Assembly (NCBI GenBank): GCA_016699875.1
Contig: CP064989.1
Coordinates: 520,788-584,787 of the forward strand
Origin: Candidatus Moraniibacteriota bacterium
GTDB taxonomy: Bacteria; Patescibacteriota; Minisyncoccia; Moranbacterales; UBA1568
DNA: 64,000 bases
Reading direction: 5' to 3'
A program made the translations under genes and the position numbers. The notes beneath the pieces were generated by a model. The model was given only the letters and a program-made list of their open reading frames with translations, was not told where the DNA came from and searched no databases. Below, piece after piece: positions 10,805 through 42,000 of the stretch (position 1 is its first letter; each line of letters starts with the position of its first letter).

Positions 10805-10875
10805 CGGGACATAGTATACCGGTAGTACGCGCCCTTCGGGTGGGTGTAGACTGGGTTCGATTCCCAGTGTCCCGA
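10805..10875 (+). tRNA. tRNA-Pro (anticodon CGG)
   Basis: Acceptor CGGGACA/TGTCCCG, anticodon loop ttCGGgt with G37, T-loop TTCGATT, discriminator A. Confidence 0.85.
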
Positions 10876-10877
10876 CT

Positions 10878-11204
10878 ATGAAATTCGCAATCAAAGATAT
10901 CGCCGACAATCCCGTCAACCTCCTCCGGCGTGCCGGATATGCCTTTCAACGCCAAGAAAACGGGGAAATGAGTTTCATTCGTCCGCTCGCTTCCGCCGGA
11001 TACCCGCGTTTTCATATGTACACACGGCTCGAGGGAGAAGATCTTCACATAAGCTTTCACCTCGATCAGAAAAAAGAAACCTACGGCGACGACACACGCC
11101 ATCACGGCGAATACGAAGAATCCGGCGTCTTGAAAGAAGAAGCCGATCGCATCAACTCATTCCTCACCCCCGCATCCGACAGTTCCGATGTAAGCCCGAT
11201 ATAA
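10878..11204 (+). CDS. Hypothetical small protein located between two tRNA genes
   Basis: 108-aa ORF starting 3 nt after tRNA-Pro; protein-like composition; no domain recognised. Confidence 0.45.
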   Translation: MKFAIKDIADNPVNLLRRAGYAFQRQENGEMSFIRPLASAGYPRFHMYTRLEGEDLHISFHLDQKKETYGDDTRHHGEYEESGVLKEEADRINSFLTPASDSSDVSPI

Positions 11205-11227
11205 TACCTCCGGAACGGCATCCCTAC

Positions 11228-11313
11228 GCCGGGGTGGCGAAATGGCAGACGCACCAGCTTTAGGAGCTGGCGGTGGCAACACCATGGAGGTTCAAGTCCT
11301 CTCCCCGGCACCA
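11228..11313 (+). tRNA. tRNA-Leu (anticodon TAG)
   Basis: Acceptor GCCGGGG/CCCCGGC, anticodon loop ttTAGga, long variable arm, encoded CCA. Confidence 0.85.
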
Positions 11314-11336
11314 GTGAGCTCACGCATCAAACACAA

Positions 11337-11375
11337 AAAAACCGCTCCTAGATTCGGAGCGGCTTTTGTTTTTCC
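11337..11375 (+). terminator. Intrinsic terminator after tRNA-Leu
   Basis: ccgctcc-tagattc-ggagcgg hairpin followed by cttttgttttt. Confidence 0.6.
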
Positions 11376-11570
11376 ATCCACAGTTCCGACGCGCGTTAAA
11401 CTTTGTTGGCACAAAGCTCCTCAAAAGAAGAACGCGTAGGTGAGATTCAACCGGACTCGAGGAGAGAATTCGGAATATTCCGAATGCCCCGACAATTGCC
11501 GGGAATATCCAGCTCAATCATCACTACCCGCTACGCGTGGCGGAACCATGAAAAGAAACTTTTGGTCTTA

Positions 11571-11665
11571 CTTCAAAGAACCCTTGCCCCCTCGCGAATC
11601 TCTACCAACCCTCAAACTTTTTCTGGTTTGAGAATTGGATTGAGAAAACAAGGCTTGCGTAAGGC
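11571..11665. repeat. Cassette-boundary repeat R1 (ttcaaagaac... ctctaccaaccctcaaactttttctggtttgagaattggattgag)
   Basis: ~85% identical to 12866-12950 and 14906-15005; imperfect hairpin (caa-cctcaa..ttgag-aattgg). Confidence 0.8.
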
Positions 11666-11725
11666 TTTTTGTACAATCTATTTTAAAGTAGTGTAAACCA
11701 TATATTTGACTTATTTTGTGGTTTT

Positions 11726-12862
11726 GTGTACCATATAATTATGGTTTTTCAACGAAAACAATCTATACCATCATCTCTCACGGCGCATCGAGTACTGGTC
11801 ATATATGGTCCGCGCCGCGTGGGAAAGACAACACTCTTGAACGCGTACTTGGAGAGTATTCGCCCCACACAAACCGTCCTTTCGGTTGTCGGGGACGATA
11901 TCCGCATCCGCGAACTTTTTGCCTCCGAAAATCGAGATGCGCTCCTTGATTTTGCACGACCATACAACACCATTGCCATTGACGAAGCCCAGCAGGTTCC
12001 CAGTATCGGTCTCGGCGCGAAAATGCTCATTGACGCCTTCCCGGAAAAACACATTATTTTGACCGGATCGTCATCATTTGATCTCTCATCGCAGATTGGC
12101 GAACCATTGACCGGTCGCCACTTTACCCTGACGCTTCTCCCATTGGCACAGTCCGAAATACAAGCAACACACTTCGAGCTGTCCGGCACACTCGAGCAAT
12201 TTCTCCGGTACGGTTCCTATCCCGAGGTGTTGATTGCACCCGATTCCGCCTCGCGAGAACGGATCTTGAACGAACTCGTTTCATCGTATCTCTACAAGGA
12301 CGTACTCGCGCTCGACAAAATCAAATCTCCGGACCTCTTGCGCGACATCGCCCGCATGATCGCTTTTCAAATCGGATCAGAAGTCTCGCTCAATGAGATA
12401 GCGATCTCGGTCAAAACCGATATCAAAACCGTCGCCCGATACCTTGATCTTCTCGAAAAAATGTTCGTCATCAGGAAAGTGCGAGGATTCAGCCGAAACC
12501 TTCGAAACGAAATTACCAAAAAGGCGAAATACTACTTTCTCGATCTCGGAGTGCGAAACGCCGTCATTGGTCGATTCGTTCCCCTCTCAAACCGCGACGA
12601 TATCGGCGCGCTCTGGGAGAACTTCGTCTTCATGGAACTCGCCAAGCAAAGCGGCTTCGCCGACATGGCGGACAGCTACTTCTTTTGGCGAACACACACC
12701 GGCGTCGAAATTGATATCATTCGCGAATCTCAAGACGCGATCGAAGCCATAGAGTGCAAGTGGAACAAAGACGCGCGCATCCCAAAGACATGGCGCGACG
12801 CCTATCCGAACAGCACATTCAAGACCATCAATCGAAATAACTACCTCAGTCAATTTGCCTAG
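11726..12862 (+). CDS. AAA-family ATP-binding protein with DUF4143-like C-terminal domain
   Basis: Walker A VIYGPRRVGKTTLL, Walker B IAIDEAQ; architecture of the widespread AAA_14/DUF4143 ATPase family. Confidence 0.8.
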   Translation: MYHIIMVFQRKQSIPSSLTAHRVLVIYGPRRVGKTTLLNAYLESIRPTQTVLSVVGDDIRIRELFASENRDALLDFARPYNTIAIDEAQQVPSIGLGAKMLIDAFPEKHIILTGSSSFDLSSQIGEPLTGRHFTLTLLPLAQSEIQATHFELSGTLEQFLRYGSYPEVLIAPDSASRERILNELVSSYLYKDVLALDKIKSPDLLRDIARMIAFQIGSEVSLNEIAISVKTDIKTVARYLDLLEKMFVIRKVRGFSRNLRNEITKKAKYYFLDLGVRNAVIGRFVPLSNRDDIGALWENFVFMELAKQSGFADMADSYFFWRTHTGVEIDIIRESQDAIEAIECKWNKDARIPKTWRDAYPNSTFKTINRNNYLSQFA

Positions 12863-12865
12863 CAT

Positions 12866-12950
12866 TTCAAAGAACTCTATTCCTCTTTTCGCTGATCTCT
12901 ACCAATCCTCAAGCTTTTTCAAGTTGAGAATTGGATTGAGAGAGGGTTGA
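12866..12950. repeat. Cassette-boundary repeat R2
   Basis: ttcaaagaactc...ctctaccaatcctcaagctttttcaagttgagaattggattgagagaggg; begins 4 nt after stop of the ATPase gene. Confidence 0.8.
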
Positions 12951-13025
12951 CCATATTCGCGATAAGCACCCTCAGAACTTATCGCAAAGCGCGTGAGAAT
13001 CTGGGGCACGCGCACCCGTTTTTCA

Positions 13026-13202
13026 TTAGTCTCGAATCCTTTCGGGACTGACAGTGTACTGCCAATCCATGGCAAGCACCTCGGCTTCCTGCCGAGTGTA
13101 AGCCAGACGATACCCGTCCGGCTCGCAGACAGTGGAGCCCGTCAGAGCTCCACACATCCGCCGCCCGCAATACGGGCACTTCGGAAGATTTTCATTTTGC
13201 AT
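13026..13202 (-). CDS. Putative 58-aa zinc-ribbon protein
   Basis: My own translation (below 60-aa cutoff of ORF track): MQNENLPKCPYCGRRMCGALTGSTVCEPDGYRLAYTRQEAEVLAMDWQYTVSPERIRD; CxxC...C...C pattern. Confidence 0.3.
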   Translation of the reverse strand: MQNENLPKCPYCGRRMCGALTGSTVCEPDGYRLAYTRQEAEVLAMDWQYTVSPERIRD

Positions 13203-13328
13203 TCCCCTCTCCTTTATCTATAATTTTCGAAAAAGTCACTCTACCGACCAGCAAGCGCTCTGCTTGCATTTCGGATAAAGCGGGGGAAGAGTTTTCAACC
13301 ATGAATACCCCTCCCCTTTGTAACCTTA

Positions 13329-14024
13329 CTACCCACCCGTTCCAAAAAGGGCGTCGGTGGTACTGGCACAAAGCGATTGCGCCTTACACCGAATCATATA
13401 CCGCTTGAAGTGGCGGCCGACTTTGGTTTTCGGCGACTCGCCAGCAAGGACGCCGCGCACGTCAGTCACTTCCGCTTCGTTAAGCAGGCACGATCCAGAA
13501 TTTGCGCCTCTACTCCACGATCCCCAGCCCTCAAGAACATTGCCATTCTTGTCGAGCAAGAAGTTATACGAGGACTCGGATCCTCCTATACGGGCAACCG
13601 CCTGAGGGTGAGGTCTGTACGAACACGTACCCTTGGCGAAGCAGACTTGGGGCATTGCCTTCCGTGCCATCCGGGCACGATAGTCAATGATCCCTTGCAC
13701 CACCGGGATGTGGCCGAGTTGGTTTACTATTTCTGCCCAAATCGCCTCATCGGCGATTTGACCGTGGGTATCGTCGCAGATACTCACATACTCCTTCTGG
13801 AGTTTCTCCACCTCAAACGCCCTCCTGTCCACAAAACAACCTCCCAACCTTTCACGGGGGTTCAGCCAATTCCACCGACCGTTCAGGAGAAAGAATACAT
13901 GGTACCTGGTGGTACCAAATCCGTTTTCATCCGTGGCGAAGACGAGATTGTCCACAGGGACGACATCGCCAATAACAAACCTCTCCGACATGGGCTGGAC
14001 TACCGCTATACAAAACCTATTTTG
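13329..14024 (-). CDS. Hypothetical protein
   Basis: MKAQNRFCIAVVQPMSERFVIGDVVPVDNLVFATDENGFGTTRYHVFF...; protein-like composition, chosen over the fully overlapping plus-strand 226-aa ORF; the C-terminal ~60 aa are low-complexity and may be over-extension. Confidence 0.4.
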   Translation of the reverse strand, partial: QNRFCIAVVQPMSERFVIGDVVPVDNLVFATDENGFGTTRYHVFFLLNGRWNWLNPRERLGGCFVDRRAFEVEKLQKEYVSICDDTHGQIADEAIWAEIVNQLGHIPVVQGIIDYRARMARKAMPQVCFAKGTCSYRPHPQAVARIGGSESSYNFLLDKNGNVLEGWGSWSRGANSGSCLLNEAEVTDVRGVLAGESPKTKVGRHFKRYMIRCKAQSLCASTTDALFGTGG

Positions 14025-14393
14025 AGCTTTCATGATAACCCCCTTAAGAGGTGTTGAGCATAGTTCCGTGCTTATCAGGCACGAGCGGTCTGAGCCACTT
14101 TCGTGGCGGTCTGAATTTTCGCACCGATACTGCCAAGCGCGTTTCTGTTCACGTTTTTCACGAATAATCTGAATCAGAAATGCACTCAGCAATTCAATTT
14201 GAAAACCCAGTGCCATACTTCAAAGAACTTTCCTATCCCGCACGCCGTACTCATGGTGCGGGATCACTCTACTGACCAAGAAGCACTTGCTTCCCTGTCA
14301 GATAAAGCGGGAGAGTTTGTACCGAAGTACTCTCCCAAGCTCCAACCTATTTGTTCAGTCCCATCGATCGGTCACACCGACGAGACTTTTGAA

Positions 14394-14768
14394 TCAGCCT
14401 TCCAAGATTGACTGGTACTTCCGACCATCCTTGGCAGTAGGCCACCGACCCGTAAGCCGACGAAACCTAATCCCGTCCGCGTTGGGGATGGTCCCCGCCA
14501 GGTACCCCTTGTACCTAGCGAAAGTCCTAGCACAGCTGAGTGCTGGGGCATTCCATGCCCCCGCAGGGAAGCGAGACAAACCATCTAACTTCCATGCAAC
14601 TTTCTCAAGCTCCCTTGCCATCTTGGCACTCTCGAAATCCCTTTCTTTGAAGAACCGGTTCGCCGCTCTCAACAGAAGCGGATACTCTAGGGCACTCGCG
14701 CCCTGACGGCGGAGCCTGCGTACCATTGTCGAGACTTTCTTATACTTCTCTTTCGCGGTCATAGTCAT
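14394..14768 (-). CDS. Hypothetical protein
   Basis: 124-aa ORF with AGGAGA SD 7 nt upstream of ATG; basic, no domain recognised. Confidence 0.5.
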   Translation of the reverse strand: MTMTAKEKYKKVSTMVRRLRRQGASALEYPLLLRAANRFFKERDFESAKMARELEKVAWKLDGLSRFPAGAWNAPALSCARTFARYKGYLAGTIPNADGIRFRRLTGRWPTAKDGRKYQSILEG

Positions 14769-14905
14769 GGCAATTCTCCTGAATTACCCCATCAGCGACA
14801 TGCTAATGGGGACCGAGATTCGGCACACAACTTTGGAAATACTTTCCAAAACTCCGTGCCGAAACCCGAAATAAGAGAATTCCATGCCAAACTAAGCTGA
14901 AATAT

Positions 14906-15005
14906 TTCAAAGAACTTGTCCTCTACCAATCCTCAAGCTTTTTCAAGTTGAGAATTGGATTGAGAGAGGGATTGCGTAAAACCTTGCAATCCCTCTTGTT
15001 CCCGC
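14906..15005. repeat. Cassette-boundary repeat R3 plus adjacent perfect 10-bp-stem hairpin (gagggattgc..gcaatccctc)
   Basis: ttcaaagaacttgtcctctaccaatcctcaagctttttcaagttgagaattggattgagagaggg, near-identical to R2. Confidence 0.8.
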
Positions 15006-15030
15006 CGAGTGAGCTTGGCGGGTTAAAAAA

Positions 15031-15357
15031 TCAGGCTATGATGGCCAGGTCCGTTTCCTTCCAGAAGAATTCGTGCTGCTCTTCCGTTACCTGGCCGCGA
15101 ACGAGAGCCTTTGCTCCCCTATGCGGAAACGGAAACCCTAGCCAAACCTCCTGCCCTGCCTCGTAGGGTATCACCCTCCCTACGCGGTATTCCCCATGCT
15201 CGCCCTCGTGCACCTGGGATTCCGACACTAGTTTTGCCACCTCCAAGCTTTGCGTTAAGCAGAGCACGTAGAGATAGCCGTCATTTGATCGCGCTTCAAC
15301 TGCGTACACTTCAACTGCGTAATGGATAAATTTTCCAGCTATAGTCAGGTGGTGCAT
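15031..15357 (-). CDS. Hypothetical protein
   Basis: Start placed at MHHLTIAGK (ATG 15355-15357) which has GAGGAG SD; 108 aa. Confidence 0.45.
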   Translation of the reverse strand: MHHLTIAGKFIHYAVEVYAVEARSNDGYLYVLCLTQSLEVAKLVSESQVHEGEHGEYRVGRVIPYEAGQEVWLGFPFPHRGAKALVRGQVTEEQHEFFWKETDLAIIA

Positions 15358-16168
15358 GGTTTTCTCCTCGTCGAAAAATTGGTTAAAAACATTCGGATAC
15401 AACAGAGAAGTTTCTACGAACAGAACTTGCTTTCGTACACCTCTCTCTGCTGCACCGAACATTCTCTTCCCTTTCCTCAAAGAAGAAATTCGCAAACTAT
15501 CTGATTGTCCGCCAACTGGCGGATTTCAAAGAACTCTCCTCACTCACAACGCAAGAGCATTGCGGCGAGAATGATGAGGGGTGAAAATTGATATACCGGT
15601 CTCCTCTAAAAAATGAGACGGTCCCTCCTCATCATTCCGGCAACAAAATACGGGCGGCGCTGTCTACGGCTCGGCACTTCCTCAGAAGAAGATGAGAGTC
15701 ATACACAGCGCCGCCCGTTGGAATACGAAATACCAATACTGCGGACTTGCCTGTTTCTCTCCTCTTCCGTTCCCCGGGTGCCACCCCAGAGAAGACTTGT
15801 TGCAAAACACAATATTTCAATGTACCTCAATCGTTAACACCGGAGTATAGCATGCTGCCAACTGTTTGTCAATATTCTAAGACAAATTATTGGCACACCG
15901 AAGGCTTATCCACGGCATTCTTGGCACATATCCATACTTTTATGGCTTGTCTACGTGCCAACACAGAACTCAATAGTACGGCTTATTTTGACGACATTAT
16001 TGGACACATGGCTTCGGTTTTATAGTTGAACAGTGGAAAGATACTGACGATTCAAAATCCCGTCCCACCGCAGAGAAATTTGACAAATCTATAATTTTCT
16101 GTTTATATATACTGTCCATCACGGACACGCAGTAACTTCCCAACCCAACAAAGCCTCAAGGAGGCACC

Positions 16169-16630
16169 ATGAAAACGACCACTTCGAAGTCTTATCTATT
16201 CGCCTTCCTCGTAGCACTTGCCTTAACCATCAGCGCATGCTCGCGCGCAGAAGAACACATATTCAAAGCGGAAGAGGCTCCGCTTTGGCTCAAAGTCGAA
16301 GGTCCATTGTCAGCGGACGCATTCTTCGCGGGAACAATCGTTCACATAAGCGTGAATGGCGCAGACTTCCACAACATGGAGGTATTACGGGTCGAAGCAA
16401 GTCATCAGGATTTTGAAAAATCTCCCAGTTTCATAGACCGTGTAGTAATTGACCTTGTAAACTGGCATGATGGCGCCCGATACACCCTCTATTTCGCAAC
16501 CCTCCACTTTAATCGCGAGCCAACAATGGCATCGAGGTTCAACAGTGTATCATTCAAAGGGTACCCTGATTGCCCTGATGGCATCTGCTCTCTTAAAGAG
16601 ATCCAGACGCGCCATCGCGTAAGTTTCTGA
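16169..16630 (+). CDS. Hypothetical lipoprotein
   Basis: AAGGAGG SD; signal peptide with lipobox LTISAC; 153 aa. Confidence 0.7.
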   Translation: MKTTTSKSYLFAFLVALALTISACSRAEEHIFKAEEAPLWLKVEGPLSADAFFAGTIVHISVNGADFHNMEVLRVEASHQDFEKSPSFIDRVVIDLVNWHDGARYTLYFATLHFNREPTMASRFNSVSFKGYPDCPDGICSLKEIQTRHRVSF

Positions 16631-16685
16631 TCGCCCCGCGCCGAGCTCACAAGAGACTCGGCGCTTTTATTCCGGAAAAACAAAC

Positions 16686-16725
16686 GGGCGGGATTCCACA
16701 TCCCGCCCTGCTTTTATTTCTGTCC
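16686..16725. terminator. Bidirectional intrinsic terminator between convergent lipoprotein gene and nrdB
   Basis: gggcgggat-tccac-atcccgccc perfect hairpin flanked by T-runs on both strands. Confidence 0.6.
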
Positions 16726-16767
16726 CATTCTCATCCTGAAATCCCCCGAATCAAGGTTCGGACATTC

Positions 16768-39576: not shown

Positions 39577-39833
39577 AACAAGCAAACACTTTTGTGGAGA
39601 TACCCACATCTTTTCCACAAAGAGCGTTCTACACAATAAGATGAGAGTATCGTACCATGTTTTAGCCCTCAGTCAAACAAATCAAACACTCTCTTTCGCA
39701 ACATTTCGAAAGCACCCCATTCATTACAGAAAAGAACAAGCGAATTAAGCGCCATCCCTCTGAAAAAAACAGCTACTTAGGATGGTAGAAATCCGTCTTA
39801 ATACACTCCTCCGCGCAAACATCTGTTTCAATA

Positions 39834-41544
39834 GTTCCACATGGAACATATTAGAGCTCTTCGACATTCAGAATCTCCACACAAAGAAGTTTCATGTGCA
39901 ACAAAGCTTTATCAAAAGAATAATATCCATTCCAAAAAATTCCTTGTTTTCCACGCCATGTACCGGTGTGCCCTCAGCAATGCTACATTAATTACCAGCA
40001 AGATCTACTCGTACTTTTTATAAACACACCCAACAGAATATACAAAACGTTCCACAAGGAACATGAGCCACCTCGTACAGACATAGGTAGACTGATTCAC
40101 GTGAAACATTTTGGCAAGCATACATTACATACTGTCATTGTTCCACAAGGAATAAGTAAATACCCCCTATTACACCTAGTGAAGAAATATATCTCAGAGA
40201 ATCCAACAAAAAATACAAAGTTTTTATTATAGACATCTTTAAAGTTCCGATTCATCTTTCCGTCCAAGAATTCCATAATACCACCACAAAATTGTTCCAC
40301 GTGAAAAATAATATGCCATGAGAAACATCGAGAAAATAAAACTACTCAATAAGTTCCACATGGAATACTGTCCGCAGTCGACATGCTTACCAACATTACT
40401 TATACAGATACATTTGGACTGGTTCGTTATGCAAGAACAATTATTGTTCCACGTGGAAATCAAAAATCGGGATACCACTAAGAGACATGAAAAAGCATGT
40501 TCCATGTGAATCAGACAAGCGAGATAAGAAAACAAATACCAACTGAGACAAGCCGCGACTCGAATGCAATGCCGCTTAATAACTAAAAATTTCGCTGACA
40601 AGAGTTCTGCTAATTATCAATATGATTCAGTGACAATAAAAACGTTGCACGTGAAACGCTGTGTATAGTTAAACAACAGGTCTGACAAAATGCTTGTTCC
40701 ACATGGAGCAATCCGGTTGCTCGAAAACGGAAATTAGACAAAAATACCTACACTTGTATGCATACAAAAACAGCCTACCGGACAACAGTATCTATACAAA
40801 AAAACACCCCCCGGGAGAATAATCCAAAAAAAAAAAAAAAAAACCAAAGGATATATACTAATAATCGTGGTCAGATATGTTCCACAAGGAACTTGTAATT
40901 CAGATACCTGAATATACTGCTCCACATGAAACAATAACGAAGATCATCACGAAACAGACAGCAAACAAAATATCGAAAAATTCCTACAAAAAATTCACCT
41001 AAAGGGAGTTACAATAGCAACAAGCAGCTCAATATAATGACTTCACCAAAATCAATACAAAAGAAATAGTTGTTCCACATGAAACAACGGGGAATATAAC
41101 CAATACAGCCACTTAAAACCCAGAGATATACAGGGCGTGGAATTGCTTTCATAACACAGCGAAAGAACAGAAGAATACAGTCAATGATCTACATACTTTC
41201 TGCATTGCTCAAGAAAGATAATTTCAGCGCACTGTATATACAATATACATACGCAGTGGAACTTACAAAAAGCAATTATTAAGGCGATCTTAACGTGAGG
41301 AGCGTTAATCTCAGATAATTCCATGTGAAACAAAATGAAAAATGTTCCACGCGCAACAATAACACCCGCTCAAAAAGCTTTATTTCAAGATCTATCGAGC
41401 AATCTCGTGGCAACAAAGCAGAGCAATAGAGTGCCCATGTATGGCGATTCAGAGACTACGCCACATGAATACACCAATAAAGAAATCTTTGATTTTAATA
41501 CTCCCGCTATACTCGCAAGTATATAAAATGTTCCACGTGAAACT
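39834..41544. repeat. Array of ~16 parS-like 16-bp palindromes (TGTTCCACGTGAAACA family) in a gene-free AT-rich region
   Basis: Sites (core coordinates): 39834, 39889, 40049, 40096, 40140, 40293, 40352, 40445, 40498, 40643, 40696, 40879, 40918, 41071, 41317, 41343, 41529; several within 1 mismatch of consensus. Confidence 0.8.
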
Positions 41545-42000
41545 ATTCGCGTGATTCTCAGAGAAATACGTGAAACATGCGAACAGAAAAACCGCGAGAT
41601 CATTGTCATCACCGGTCCAATTTAAATCCAACAATATCAACTCTTTGAAGAGAGATGGTTTGCCTTCAAAGGCTTGTAGCTGCTTTATCAATGCGGAAGA
41701 AGTCCTTTATCCAGACATTACACTGAGAGAATGCGATAGGAACAATATTTTCACTCACTACCATAGCAGTCACCAAAAAAACACATCGGCAGTGAAAATT
41801 ACACATAGTAAACTAAGAAAAGACACAAAAAAATCCTTCAGACAAACGCCCGCCACAAATTACAGCGAATCTCTGCAATCCGCGACACTCACCATTAAAT
41901 CATTCCAAAAATTTCTTCATCTATATTTGACACGTCAGGGAAAAGTTTTTTTTGAATAAAGTGTGGTATACTGCACAGTGATATTCTACTTCGATATCAT

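What the first reader, a model, noticed from the sequence alone, without database searches (positions are those of the whole stretch)
11571..15600. Repeat-punctuated cassette-like accessory array immediately downstream of tRNA-Pro/tRNA-Leu
Three copies of an ~85-bp imperfect-hairpin repeat (11571-11665, 12866-12950, 14906-15005) each begin with the 11-mer TTCAAAGAACT/C. The same 11-mer plus a different imperfect hairpin recurs at 14219 and 15524, giving five sites. The repeats delimit units containing unrelated small genes: an AAA/DUF4143 ATPase (+), a 58-aa zinc-ribbon ORF and a 231-aa unknown protein (-), a 124-aa protein (-), and a 108-aa protein (-), several with good SD sequences. Conserved core, imperfect inverted repeat and unrelated promoter-poor ORFs between sites is formally similar to integron attC-cassette arrays or to other site-specific-recombinase cassette systems. 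However, gene orientations are mixed and no integrase is in the window. The location right after two tRNA genes, an integration hot spot, fits an acquired island.
Basis: seen in the sequence. Interest (0 to 1): 0.6.

Follow-up and report, generated by a model that had tools for sequence, protein, structure and literature searches.

The report
Strain-variable gene-cassette array with structured repeats
Downstream of a tRNA-Leu gene, this small-genome Moraniibacteriota bacterium has a row of single-gene cassettes separated by folded repeats ending in one fixed 11-base word; close relatives carry different genes there, so it behaves like an integron but has no integrase nearby and its sites are not integron attC sites.

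Summary
TTCAAAGAACY occurs five times, all on the + strand and only at 11572-15535 of the 64-kb window (0.14 expected). Hairpin repeats of two related types lie next to it.

Related assemblies from sewage and wastewater metagenomes settle the key question. The same locus (tRNA-Pro, tRNA-Leu, DUF4143 ATPase ... nrd genes) holds a different set of small ORFs in each assembly. Homology breaks fall within about 2 nt of the 11-mer, or exactly at start or stop codons. The array is therefore a genuine hypervariable cassette array.

- It lies downstream of a conserved strong promoter and a conserved ~290-nt structured non-coding leader on the minus strand.
- The hairpins show covariation and G-U pairs only on the minus strand.
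- Reverse-oriented cassettes carry defence-type genes (DUF4143/PDC-S01 here, AbiE in relatives). DUF4143 has its own promoter-like site.

It is not a canonical integron. There is no R''/R' pairing, no GTTRRRY core and no integrase among 55 ORFs tested. It is also not a set of terminators, REP elements or MITEs.

Best reading: an integron-like capture and shuffling platform that uses a new type of site. Whether a dedicated recombinase or short-homology (PeSL-like) recombination does the work is unresolved.

The parts
10805..11313 (+). tRNA-Pro(CGG) at 10805-10876 and tRNA-Leu(UAG) at 11228-11313. This is the conserved left flank of the locus.
   Evidence: ARAGORN and Rfam. The same order is seen in relative L141.
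11314..11571 (.). Conserved non-coding block between tRNA-Leu and site 1. It contains a tRNA terminator-like hairpin and an 18-bp perfect palindrome, ATTCGGAATATTCCGAAT.
   Evidence: Lies in the blastn block win 11244-12877 = L141 9519-11137 (83.7% identity). The palindrome is kept in L141 through a compensatory change. Terminator-like hairpin 11342-11362.
11572..11649 (-). Site 1: 11-mer at 11572-11582 plus type-A hairpin at 11600-11649.
   Evidence: Relatives have lost the 11-mer here but keep the hairpin with compensatory changes.
11706..12862 (+). Reverse-oriented cassette. It has its own promoter-like site (TTGACT-17-TACCAT, 11706-11734) and the AAA_14/DUF4143 ATPase gene at 11741-12862. 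The stop codon lies 3 nt before site 2.
   Evidence: Pfam 1.3e-38 and 1.1e-26. PADLOC PDC-S01 2.5e-130. Promoter scan. The protein is 373 aa, equal to QQS16227.1.
12866..13025 (-). Site 2 unit: 11-mer at 12866-12876, type-A hairpin at 12897-12946 and further 3'UTR hairpins up to the stop codon of the 58-aa ORF.
   Evidence: The unit is homologous (75%) to L141 12676-12834, which follows a different ORF.
13026..13202 (-). 58-aa CxxC...C zinc-ribbon-like ORF (cassette).
   Evidence: ORF with ribosome-binding site. Its start and the adjacent type-B unit are shared with L158 5-145 (83%).
13226..13294 (-). Decayed site (TTCGAAAAAGT, 13226-13236) plus type-B hairpin at 13236-13294.
   Evidence: The model built from type A hits 13239-13281 at E=0.01.
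13329..14033 (-). 234-aa ORF (cassette). It has two distant homologues in gene-dense short metagenome contigs.
   Evidence: P0001 at 100%, P0002 and P0003 at 32-40%. Contexts. The structure model is of low confidence.
14219..14318 (-). Site 3 unit: 11-mer at 14219-14229, small hairpin CCCGCAC...GTGCGGG at 14237-14262 and type-B hairpin at 14264-14318.
   Evidence: The same small hairpin follows the 11-mer in relatives.
14394..14768 (-). 124-aa ORF (cassette). It is almost an orphan.
   Evidence: Apart from itself, only one relative (52% identity) among 1.84 billion representative proteins.
14906..15030 (-). Site 4 unit: 11-mer at 14906-14916, type-A hairpin at 14921-14970 (identical to that of site 2) and two further hairpins up to the stop codon of the 108-aa ORF.
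   Evidence: (z = -6.4).
15031..15357 (-). 108-aa ORF (cassette).
   Evidence: No homologue found.
15358..15524 (-). Structured 5'UTR of the 108-aa ORF. The same 5'UTR family precedes three unrelated ORFs in relatives.
   Evidence: Alignment and fold A5. blastn blocks. The ORFs are unrelated.
15525..15535 (-). Site 5: 11-mer between the leader and the first cassette, preceded on the + strand by the palindromic hairpin CCGCCAACTGGCGG.
15558..15842 (-). Conserved ~290-nt structured non-coding leader RNA. It has no Rfam match.
   Evidence: 84% by blastn and 88% by alignment to L141, with a 20-nt hairpin insertion there. L158 has a different hairpin filling. Consensus fold with a compensatory pair. 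No Rfam hit. The overlapping ORF shows more amino-acid than nucleotide change (my reading).
15844..15872 (-). Strong sigma-70-type promoter (TTGACA-17-TGcTATACT) pointing into the array.
   Evidence: 11 of 12 consensus matches with an extended -10. Both hexamers are invariant in L141.

Best explanation
The region is a chromosomal, strain-variable gene-cassette array in a Candidatus Moraniibacteriota (CPR) genome. It sits at a fixed locus between tRNA-Leu(UAG) and the nrd genes.

Layout:
- One conserved promoter and a ~290-nt structured leader on the minus strand head the array, and most cassette ORFs point the same way.
- Each cassette is one ORF (sometimes two) with a 5'UTR and a 3' unit of hairpins. 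Read on the minus strand, the unit ends in the fixed word GTTCTTTGAAA.
- Cassettes in the opposite orientation carry defence or toxin-type genes. The DUF4143 cassette has its own promoter-like site.

Proposed mechanism: cassettes are gained, lost and recombined by crossovers inside the 11-15-nt word. I think these crossovers are most likely made by a site-specific recombinase encoded elsewhere in the genome. That enzyme would recognise the word together with the adjacent hairpins folded from the minus strand, which is the same logic as integron attC recombination but with a different site.

Shown: the array, its polarity, the structural conservation of the hairpins, cassette turnover between relatives, and junctions at the 11-mer.

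Inferred: the site-specific mechanism, the single-transcript expression, and the role of the leader.
For: Clustering and polarity:
- Five exact copies of the word, all on one strand, only in this 4 kb.
- The same word in the same orientation appears in every related array.

Cassette turnover:
- Six kinds of related assembly share a DUF4143 gene whose product falls in the same 90%-identity cluster.
- Right after it they carry five different neighbours: 58 aa; 71 aa; 85+100 aa; DUF6922+AbiEii; >=238 aa.
- About 18 cassette ORFs show no pairwise similarity.

Junction position:
- win 11244-12877 = L141 9519-11137 ends 1 nt after the 11-mer.
- win 12864-13023 = L141 12676-12834 starts 2 nt before it.
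- L141 therefore has 1552 bp (two cassettes) exactly between two 11-mers.
- The DUF4143 3' end is joined to five different right-hand sequences, which diverge 2 nt after the word.
- Left and right halves of sites assort freely.

Hairpin structure is under selection on the minus strand:
- 11 variants are 98% paired, with 5 pairs changed on both sides. Slid controls give 22-52%.
- All 11 variants fold better on the minus strand than on the plus strand.

Other points:
- Conserved promoter and leader.
- The units keep one orientation whatever the ORF orientation.
- They are not terminators.
- They are absent from the rest of the window, from more distant relatives' loci, and from phage and plasmid collections.
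Against: - No recombinase gene was found among 55 window ORFs or within 10 kb of the array in L141.
- The 11-mer has no dyad symmetry and no conserved pairing partner, unlike known tyrosine-recombinase cores or attC sites.
- Many homology breakpoints are not at the 11-mer. They fall at the ATG, at the stop codon, or at the outer foot of the hairpin. This fits general recombination between conserved flanks just as well.
- G-U pairs point to RNA at least as much as to single-stranded DNA.
- The only 'circle' seen (L149, 30-nt end overlap) can be an assembly artefact of a 44-nt exact repeat.
Confidence: 0.45

Rival explanations
1. PeSL-like punctuation. The hairpin units and the 11-mer are RNA-level signals of one long operon transcript: stabilising 3' stem-loops followed by an A/U-rich processing or binding site. 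Because they are repeated, general or short-homology recombination between them (and between the shared 5'UTRs) shuffles the ORFs. No dedicated recombinase is involved, as proposed for promoter-stem-loop cassettes in T4-type phages.
For: - G-U pairs occur only on the transcribed minus strand.
- A single strong promoter precedes the array, and the scan lists no promoter-like site between the minus-strand ORFs.
- Breakpoints also fall at ATG and stop codons and at hairpin feet, so whole conserved intergenic frameworks (about 310 nt between L141 and L158) behave as homology anchors.
- No recombinase is nearby.
- Precedent: PeSL-mediated shuffling and mini-circles (PMC2839356).
Against: - The sharpest and most frequent junction offers only 11-15 nt of identity, while flanks differ completely. 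That is short for RecA-type recombination.
- The units lack promoters and terminators, the two functional parts of a PeSL.
- The type-A hairpin at site 1 is kept by compensatory changes although it lies beyond the last co-oriented gene.
- This model does not explain how unrelated ORFs acquired the same flanks.
Confidence: 0.3
2. A divergent true integron fragment (CALIN). The units would be atypical attC sites mobilised by an IntI-type integrase encoded elsewhere in the genome.
For: - Cassette layout, a Pc-like promoter, a mostly co-oriented array, and reverse-oriented defence/toxin cassettes resemble sedentary chromosomal integrons (10.1101/2024.07.02.601686, listed).
- A GTT triplet lies inside the word.
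- The sites are homogeneous within the array.
- CALINs without a nearby intI are common (PMC4889954).
Against: - No R''/R' pairing; the 11-mer pairs with different or no partners in 12 units.
- The core is GTTCTTT, not GTTRRRY.
- The conserved word is 11-15 nt, far more conserved than attC boxes.
- No integrase in 64 kb.
Confidence: 0.07
3. The units are a new self-cleaving ribozyme or another catalytic or ligand-binding RNA that cuts the polycistronic transcript into monocistronic mRNAs. Their recurrence between ORFs would reflect that function.
For: - A conserved internal-loop hairpin (CUCUCAAU...GUAGAG invariant in 11 variants), with a fixed single-stranded word downstream in those copies that keep the 11-mer.
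- Minus-strand (RNA) specific pairing.
- Occurrence in consecutive intergenic regions, a pattern noted for other orphan RNA motifs (PMC5737381).
Against: - The distance between hairpin and word varies from 5 to 38 nt, and other hairpin types replace type A. This is unlike a compact catalytic fold.
- No match to any Rfam ribozyme.
- No conserved tertiary pairing was found.
Confidence: 0.08
4. Selfish short repeats (MITE, REP or BIME-like) or ordinary terminators that happen to have accumulated in a variable region.
For: Short imperfect hairpins in intergenic DNA. Many short metagenome contigs break inside them, as happens at repeats.
Against: - No copy elsewhere in the 64 kb, in the 21 kb of L141, or in more distant relatives' loci.
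- No T-run terminators at the units.
- Between genomes the units are kept and the ORFs change, the opposite of MITE presence/absence.
- One strict orientation.
Confidence: 0.05

Closest known systems
Integrons, especially sedentary chromosomal integrons and CALIN arrays
   Same: - A one-directional array of mostly single-ORF, promoter-less cassettes, each followed by a folded recombination-site-like repeat.
- One promoter at the head of the array.
- Repeats that are homogeneous within the array.
- Orphan ORFs.
- Reverse-oriented cassettes that carry toxin or defence modules.
- Content that differs between close strains, with junctions at a short conserved core.
   Different: - No IntI nearby.
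- The site is not an attC: no R''/R' stem, and the core is GTTCTTTGAAA rather than GTTRRRY.
- The hairpin has its own invariant internal loop.
- Some cassettes have long structured 5'UTRs that are shared between unrelated ORFs.
- A 290-nt conserved RNA-like leader stands where attI would be.
- The host is a ~1-Mb CPR genome, a size class reported to lack integrons.
PeSL (promoter-early stem-loop) cassettes of T4-type phage hyperplastic regions (PMC2839356, PMC4122927)
   Same: Conserved ~100-nt composite motifs flank small ORFans. Insertions, deletions and replacements between close relatives are bounded by the motifs. Recombination between neighbouring motifs is the proposed mechanism.
   Different: PeSLs are a promoter plus a terminator; these units contain neither. 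This array is in a bacterial chromosome, not in a phage. The crossover word is only 11-15 nt long.
DUF1874-type RNA/ssDNA motifs found in consecutive intergenic regions (PMC5737381)
   Same: A structured motif recurs motif-ORF-motif-ORF with no integrase at the end. It was discussed by its authors as a possible unusual attC.
   Different: No sequence or structure match (Rfam search negative). That motif usually lies in 5'UTRs. Here the conserved hairpin is 3' of the ORF.
pdif (XerC/D) modules of Acinetobacter plasmids (from my own knowledge, not checked in the literature tools)
   Same: Discrete accessory-gene modules are bounded by short conserved recombination sites, and the recombinase is encoded elsewhere.
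   Different: pdif sites are 28-bp dyad sites that flank modules in inverted orientation. Here the sites are direct repeats without dyad symmetry.

Membership tests
Integron (complete) | Integron-type tyrosine integrase gene (intI) next to the array | tested here: not met
   55 window ORFs scanned against Pfam, with no integrase, resolvase or transposase hit. None in the gene table of L141 +-10 kb. The rest of the 1.09-Mb genome could not be read.
Integron / CALIN | attC sites: R''(RYYYAAC)-L''...L'-R'(GTTRRRY) forming one imperfect hairpin with extrahelical bases | tested here: not met
   The word is GTTCTTTGAAA. Its pairing partner differs or is absent in 12 units folded. The conserved hairpin lies beside the word, not around it. 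IntegronFinder's own attC model was not available.
Integron / CALIN | Array of cassettes whose content differs between strains, with junctions in the core site | tested here: met
Integron | Common promoter (Pc) at the head of a co-oriented array | tested here: met
   TTGACA-17-TATACT at 15872-15844, conserved in L141. Four of five window ORFs are co-oriented with it. Transcription itself was not tested.
PeSL regulatory cassettes | Each unit holds a sigma-70 promoter and a stem-loop terminator | tested here: not met
   The consensus scan finds no promoter or terminator at any of the units. The sequences after TTGAAA lack a -10 element (read).
PeSL regulatory cassettes | Indels and replacements of ORFans between close relatives are bounded by the motif | tested here: met
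REP/BIME or MITE | Many copies dispersed over the genome, after unrelated core genes, in both orientations | tested here: not met
   All copies are in one 4-kb stretch and in one orientation. This holds only for the 64 kb plus related loci; the whole genome was not testable.
Intrinsic terminators | G+C-rich stem-loop followed by a T-run | tested here: not met
   None of the units is listed by the terminator scan.
Known structured RNA families (Rfam 15, including ribozymes and DUF1874) | Covariance-model match | tested here: not met
   Only tRNAs pass the thresholds. The best hits on the units and the leader have E > 0.5.
tRNA-integrated genomic island | Direct repeat of the tRNA 3' part at the far end, plus an integrase | tested here: not met
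   No second copy of the tRNA-Leu or tRNA-Pro 3' part in the window, and no integrase. However, the tRNA-Leu gene itself is disrupted in some relatives.
Xer/dif-type modules | 28-31-bp site with two inverted ~11-bp arms around a 6-8-bp spacer | tested here: not met
   Alignment of all sites shows conservation of A[CT]TTCAAAGAAC[CT][CT]T only, with no inverted arm.

The most novel reading that the evidence does not exclude
This would be a previously undescribed gene-capture system of CPR bacteria. Its recombination site is a two-part structure: a hairpin with an invariant CUCUCAAU/GUAGAG internal loop, plus the 11-nt core GTTCTTTGAAA. A non-IntI enzyme would act on it. The conserved ~290-nt structured RNA at the head of the array would be a working part, either as the entry site or leader or as an RNA cofactor. 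Because ORFs are exchanged exactly from ATG to stop inside shared UTR frames, the array might also show how cassettes are made.
Probability: 0.27. Interest if true: 0.85.

Novelty: new variant of a known kind. Interest (0 to 1): 0.68.

Why it matters
- Integron-type cassette platforms are the classic engines of rapid gene gain. They are tied to one integrase family and one site type, and are reported to be absent from very small genomes.
- Here, a ~1-Mb episymbiont-type genome keeps a fast-turning library of orphan and defence genes at one fixed locus, using a different site. This suggests that such platforms evolved more than once.
- The locus is a concrete place to look for a new recombinase or RNA-based mechanism.
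- The precise ORF swaps inside shared UTR frames bear on the open question of how cassettes originate.
- The conserved leader is also an unclassified structured RNA candidate.

Tried and rejected
- **tRNA-derived att repeats:** none found.
- **Sigma-70 promoter reading of TTGAAA inside the word:** no conserved -10 element.
- **Terminators:** none at the units.
- **GTDB genome scan with the type-A pattern:** 9 hits, none in a Moraniibacteriota or Patescibacteria record; about 10 chance matches were expected by my estimate.
- **Loose pattern TTCAAAGAAC...CTCTAC on viral contigs:** 120+ hits, each locus with a single match, consistent with chance.
- **Specific patterns and leader words on viral contigs:** nothing real.
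- **Metagenome scan:** only 2 contigs, both from the same lineage.
- **Phage and plasmid collections:** no DNA or protein match.
- **Homologues of the 108, 124 and 58-aa ORFs:** none by word-indexed search. One relative of the 124-aa ORF by full HMMER.
- **AlphaFold model of the 234-aa protein:** pLDDT 50, too poor for fold search.
- **Circular contig L149 as evidence of an excised cassette:** rejected as ambiguous. A 44-nt exact hairpin repeat exceeds k=31 and can create the cycle.
- **Leader as a protein gene:** rejected. Its ORF changes more at the amino-acid level (81% identity) than at the nucleotide level (88%), by my reading.
- **IS200/IS605, IS91 and REP/RAYT-like readings:** considered and set aside. 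Spacing between hairpin and word is variable, no HUH gene is nearby, and the CTAC/hairpin order is opposite to REP.
- **Exact look-ups of the window's own 124-aa ORF, of P0001 and of P0138:** none found on record.

Full report
**1.

TTCAAAGAACY occurs five times in the 64-kb window. All copies are on the + strand, at 11572, 12866, 14219, 14906 and 15525, against 0.14 expected by chance.

A 50-nt hairpin core follows three of these copies, at 11600, 12897 and 14921. The last two cores are identical. A second hairpin family (type B) lies at 13236-13294 and 14264-14318. A covariance model built from type A picks up one window copy weakly, at 13239-13281, so types A and B are relatives.

A decayed site, TTCGAAAAAGT at 13226-13236, splits the unit that held two ORFs. 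The pattern is therefore one ORF per unit.

The ORFs are:
- a DUF4143/AAA_14 ATPase on the + strand. It matches the PADLOC defence candidate PDC-S01 at 2.5e-130;
- ORFs of 58, 234, 124 and 108 aa on the - strand, each with a GGAG-type ribosome-binding site.

**2. What the repeats are not**

- The terminator scan lists none of them.
- No further copy of the word, the 18-mer core or the hairpin model occurs in the other 60 kb.
- Rfam gives only tRNAs.
- No tRNA-derived direct repeat bounds the region.
- 55 window ORFs scanned against Pfam include no integrase, resolvase or transposase.

**3. Which strand folds**

Eleven distinct variants of the type-A hairpin were collected from the window and from relatives. 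All fold more stably as the minus strand, for example -16.7 versus -7.3 kcal/mol. The reason is that several positions are G-U pairs on the minus strand and would be C-A mismatches on the plus strand.

On the alignment, 98% of cells pair and five pairs show changes on both sides. Slid controls give 22-52% paired. The loop-flanking words CUCUCAAU and GUAGAG never vary.

So the minus strand is under structural selection, either as RNA or as single-stranded DNA. The small ORFs lie on the same strand.

**4. Source and relatives**

The 234-aa protein is 100% identical, over the 94% of it that aligns, to a protein of a Candidatus Moraniibacteriota MAG with a 1.09-Mb contig.

The DUF4143 protein belongs to a 90%-identity cluster of 34 sequences from sewage and wastewater assemblies. 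Fetching their contigs gave the syntenic locus in a related species, L141, which is 77-85% identical in core genes. Shorter pieces came from five further assembly types.

The order is always the same: tRNA-Pro, tRNA-Leu, a conserved non-coding block, DUF4143, array, conserved leader, a second variable stretch, then nrdB and nrdA.

**5. Cassette turnover**

Directly after DUF4143 the assemblies carry different genes:

| Assembly | Neighbour of DUF4143 |
|---|---|
| window | 58 aa |
| L141 | 71 aa |
| L144/L145 | 85 + 100 aa |
| L146/L147 and L154/L155 | DUF6922 + AbiEii, on the + strand |
| L161 | at least 238 aa |

About 18 cassette ORFs show no pairwise similarity. Only DUF4143 and the 58-aa zinc-ribbon ORF are shared.

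The cassette ORFs are nearly orphans:
- no homologue was found for the 108, 124 and 58-aa ORFs in 5.8 billion proteins;
- the 124-aa ORF has one relative among 1.84 billion representatives;
- the 234-aa ORF has two distant homologues, in gene-dense short contigs.

**6. Where the junctions fall**

The block window 11244-12877 = L141 9519-11137 ends 1 nt after the 11-mer. The block window 12864-13023 = L141 12676-12834 starts 2 nt before it. L141 therefore carries 1552 bp, two cassettes, exactly between two copies of the word.

The DUF4143 3' end is joined to five different right-hand sequences, which diverge 2 nt after the word. The left and right halves of sites assort freely. For example, the junction at L154 4242 combines the left side of window site 5 with the right side of window site 4.

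Other breakpoints are exact at ORF ends.
- A ~165-250-nt structured 5'UTR is shared up to the ATG by four unrelated ORFs: 108, 166, 303 and 93 aa.
- The 160-nt 3' unit of window site 2 is shared up to the stop codon with a unit that follows a different ORF in L141.

**7. Polarity and expression**

The units keep one orientation whatever the ORF orientation. In + coordinates the order is word, small GC-rich hairpin, then large hairpin.

ORFs on the + strand (DUF4143 and the AbiE pair) end 1-3 nt before the word. DUF4143 has its own promoter-like site.

Upstream of the array, on the minus strand, lies a near-consensus promoter, TTGACA-17-TGcTATACT at 15872-15844. A ~290-nt leader follows it. The leader is 84-88% identical to L141, which is at or above the range for the protein genes (77-85%). 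In L141 it has a 20-nt hairpin insertion, and in L158 a different hairpin filling. Its overlapping ORF changes more at the amino-acid level than at the nucleotide level, so I read it as non-coding.

**8. Interpretation**

The layout is that of a sedentary integron: a head promoter, co-oriented promoter-less orphan cassettes, homogeneous folded sites, reverse-oriented defence or toxin cassettes, and strain-to-strain turnover.

The site, however, fails the attC definition. The word has no conserved partner in 12 folded units, and the core is GTTCTTT rather than GTTRRRY. No integrase is near. Very small genomes are reported to lack complete integrons, with CALIN arrays following the same genome-size trend (PMC4889954).

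The closest functional analogue without a dedicated recombinase is the PeSL system of T4-type phages (PMC2839356). These units, though, contain neither a promoter nor a terminator.

- I favour site-specific recombination in the 11-15-nt word, at about 0.45. Junctions with only that much identity recur, and the word is invariant while its flanks are free.
- I hold homology-driven shuffling of RNA punctuation elements at about 0.3. Many breakpoints lie elsewhere in the conserved frames, and the G-U evidence fits RNA.
- The rest is shared among a new ribozyme or processing motif, a very divergent CALIN, and selfish repeats.

**9. Limits**

The complete genome could not be read. The absence of a recombinase and of further arrays therefore holds only for 64 kb plus about 21 kb in L141.

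The circular Logan contig L149 cannot be used as evidence of excision.

The family looks narrow. It gave two hits in the metagenome contig collection and none among GTDB species representatives, viral contigs, phages or plasmids.

Noticed in passing
window 39600-42000: A low-GC stretch (0.37-0.45) of about 2.4 kb lies next to tRNA-Arg and tRNA-Ala. It has no credible ORF. It holds about a dozen or more copies, on both strands, of a palindromic motif of the type TGTTCCAC(A/G)TG(G/A)AAC, which resembles a DnaA box (TTWTNCACA). GC skew does not change sign there, so an origin of replication is not evident. It may be some other protein-binding array.
   Followed up: partly
L141 9352-9590 (also L144 1-120, L161 1-95): In some relatives the ancestral tRNA-Leu(UAG) gene is broken. 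Its 5' fragment, then a complete but different tRNA-Leu(UAG), then its 3' part (anticodon arm to the end) lie in a row. In L144 and L161 the 3' part is instead preceded by a piece of a long inverted-repeat element that is also seen near nrdB in L141 (15657-15847). The window, L154 and L156 keep the intact gene.
   Followed up: partly
window 15558-15842 (minus strand): A ~290-nt conserved, highly structured non-coding RNA candidate with its own near-consensus promoter and no Rfam match. Near its 5' end it contains GTACATTGAAAT, which differs by 2 of 12 bases from the cassette word GTTCTTTGAAAT and is conserved in L141.
   Followed up: partly
window 11463-11480: An 18-bp perfect palindrome, ATTCGGAATATTCCGAAT, lies in the conserved non-coding block after tRNA-Leu. 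L141 has ATTCGGGATATCCCGAAT, so a double change keeps the palindrome. It is probably an operator or a hairpin.
   Followed up: no
window 15889-16766 versus L141 14051-15894: A second variable stretch lies between the leader promoter and nrdB. The window has a 153-aa putative lipoprotein gene. At the same place L141 has an AbiEii gene preceded by a + strand reading frame that reads like an AbiEi antitoxin (the collection's gene table calls a 157-aa ORF on the - strand there), and a 190-bp inverted-repeat element. No 11-mer sites are involved.
   Followed up: no
window 15890-15961: Three copies of TTGGCAC(A/G), two direct and one inverted, lie just upstream of the leader promoter. Another copy is at 11406 in the block after tRNA-Leu. 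The word is mildly over-represented in the window as a whole (64 matches versus 41 expected with one mismatch allowed).
   Followed up: partly
window 11729-11743: The -10-like hexamer of the DUF4143 promoter ends 6 nt before the ATG, so this mRNA may be leaderless. The arrangement is the same in all relatives.
   Followed up: no
L002 1007-3195 and L141 11900-12446: A homologue of the window's 234-aa cassette protein and an MJ1673-family (PF27247) gene lie three genes apart in a tightly packed short contig (L002). An MJ1673-family gene is also a cassette in L141. The cassette genes may therefore come from a common pool, possibly viral.
   Followed up: no
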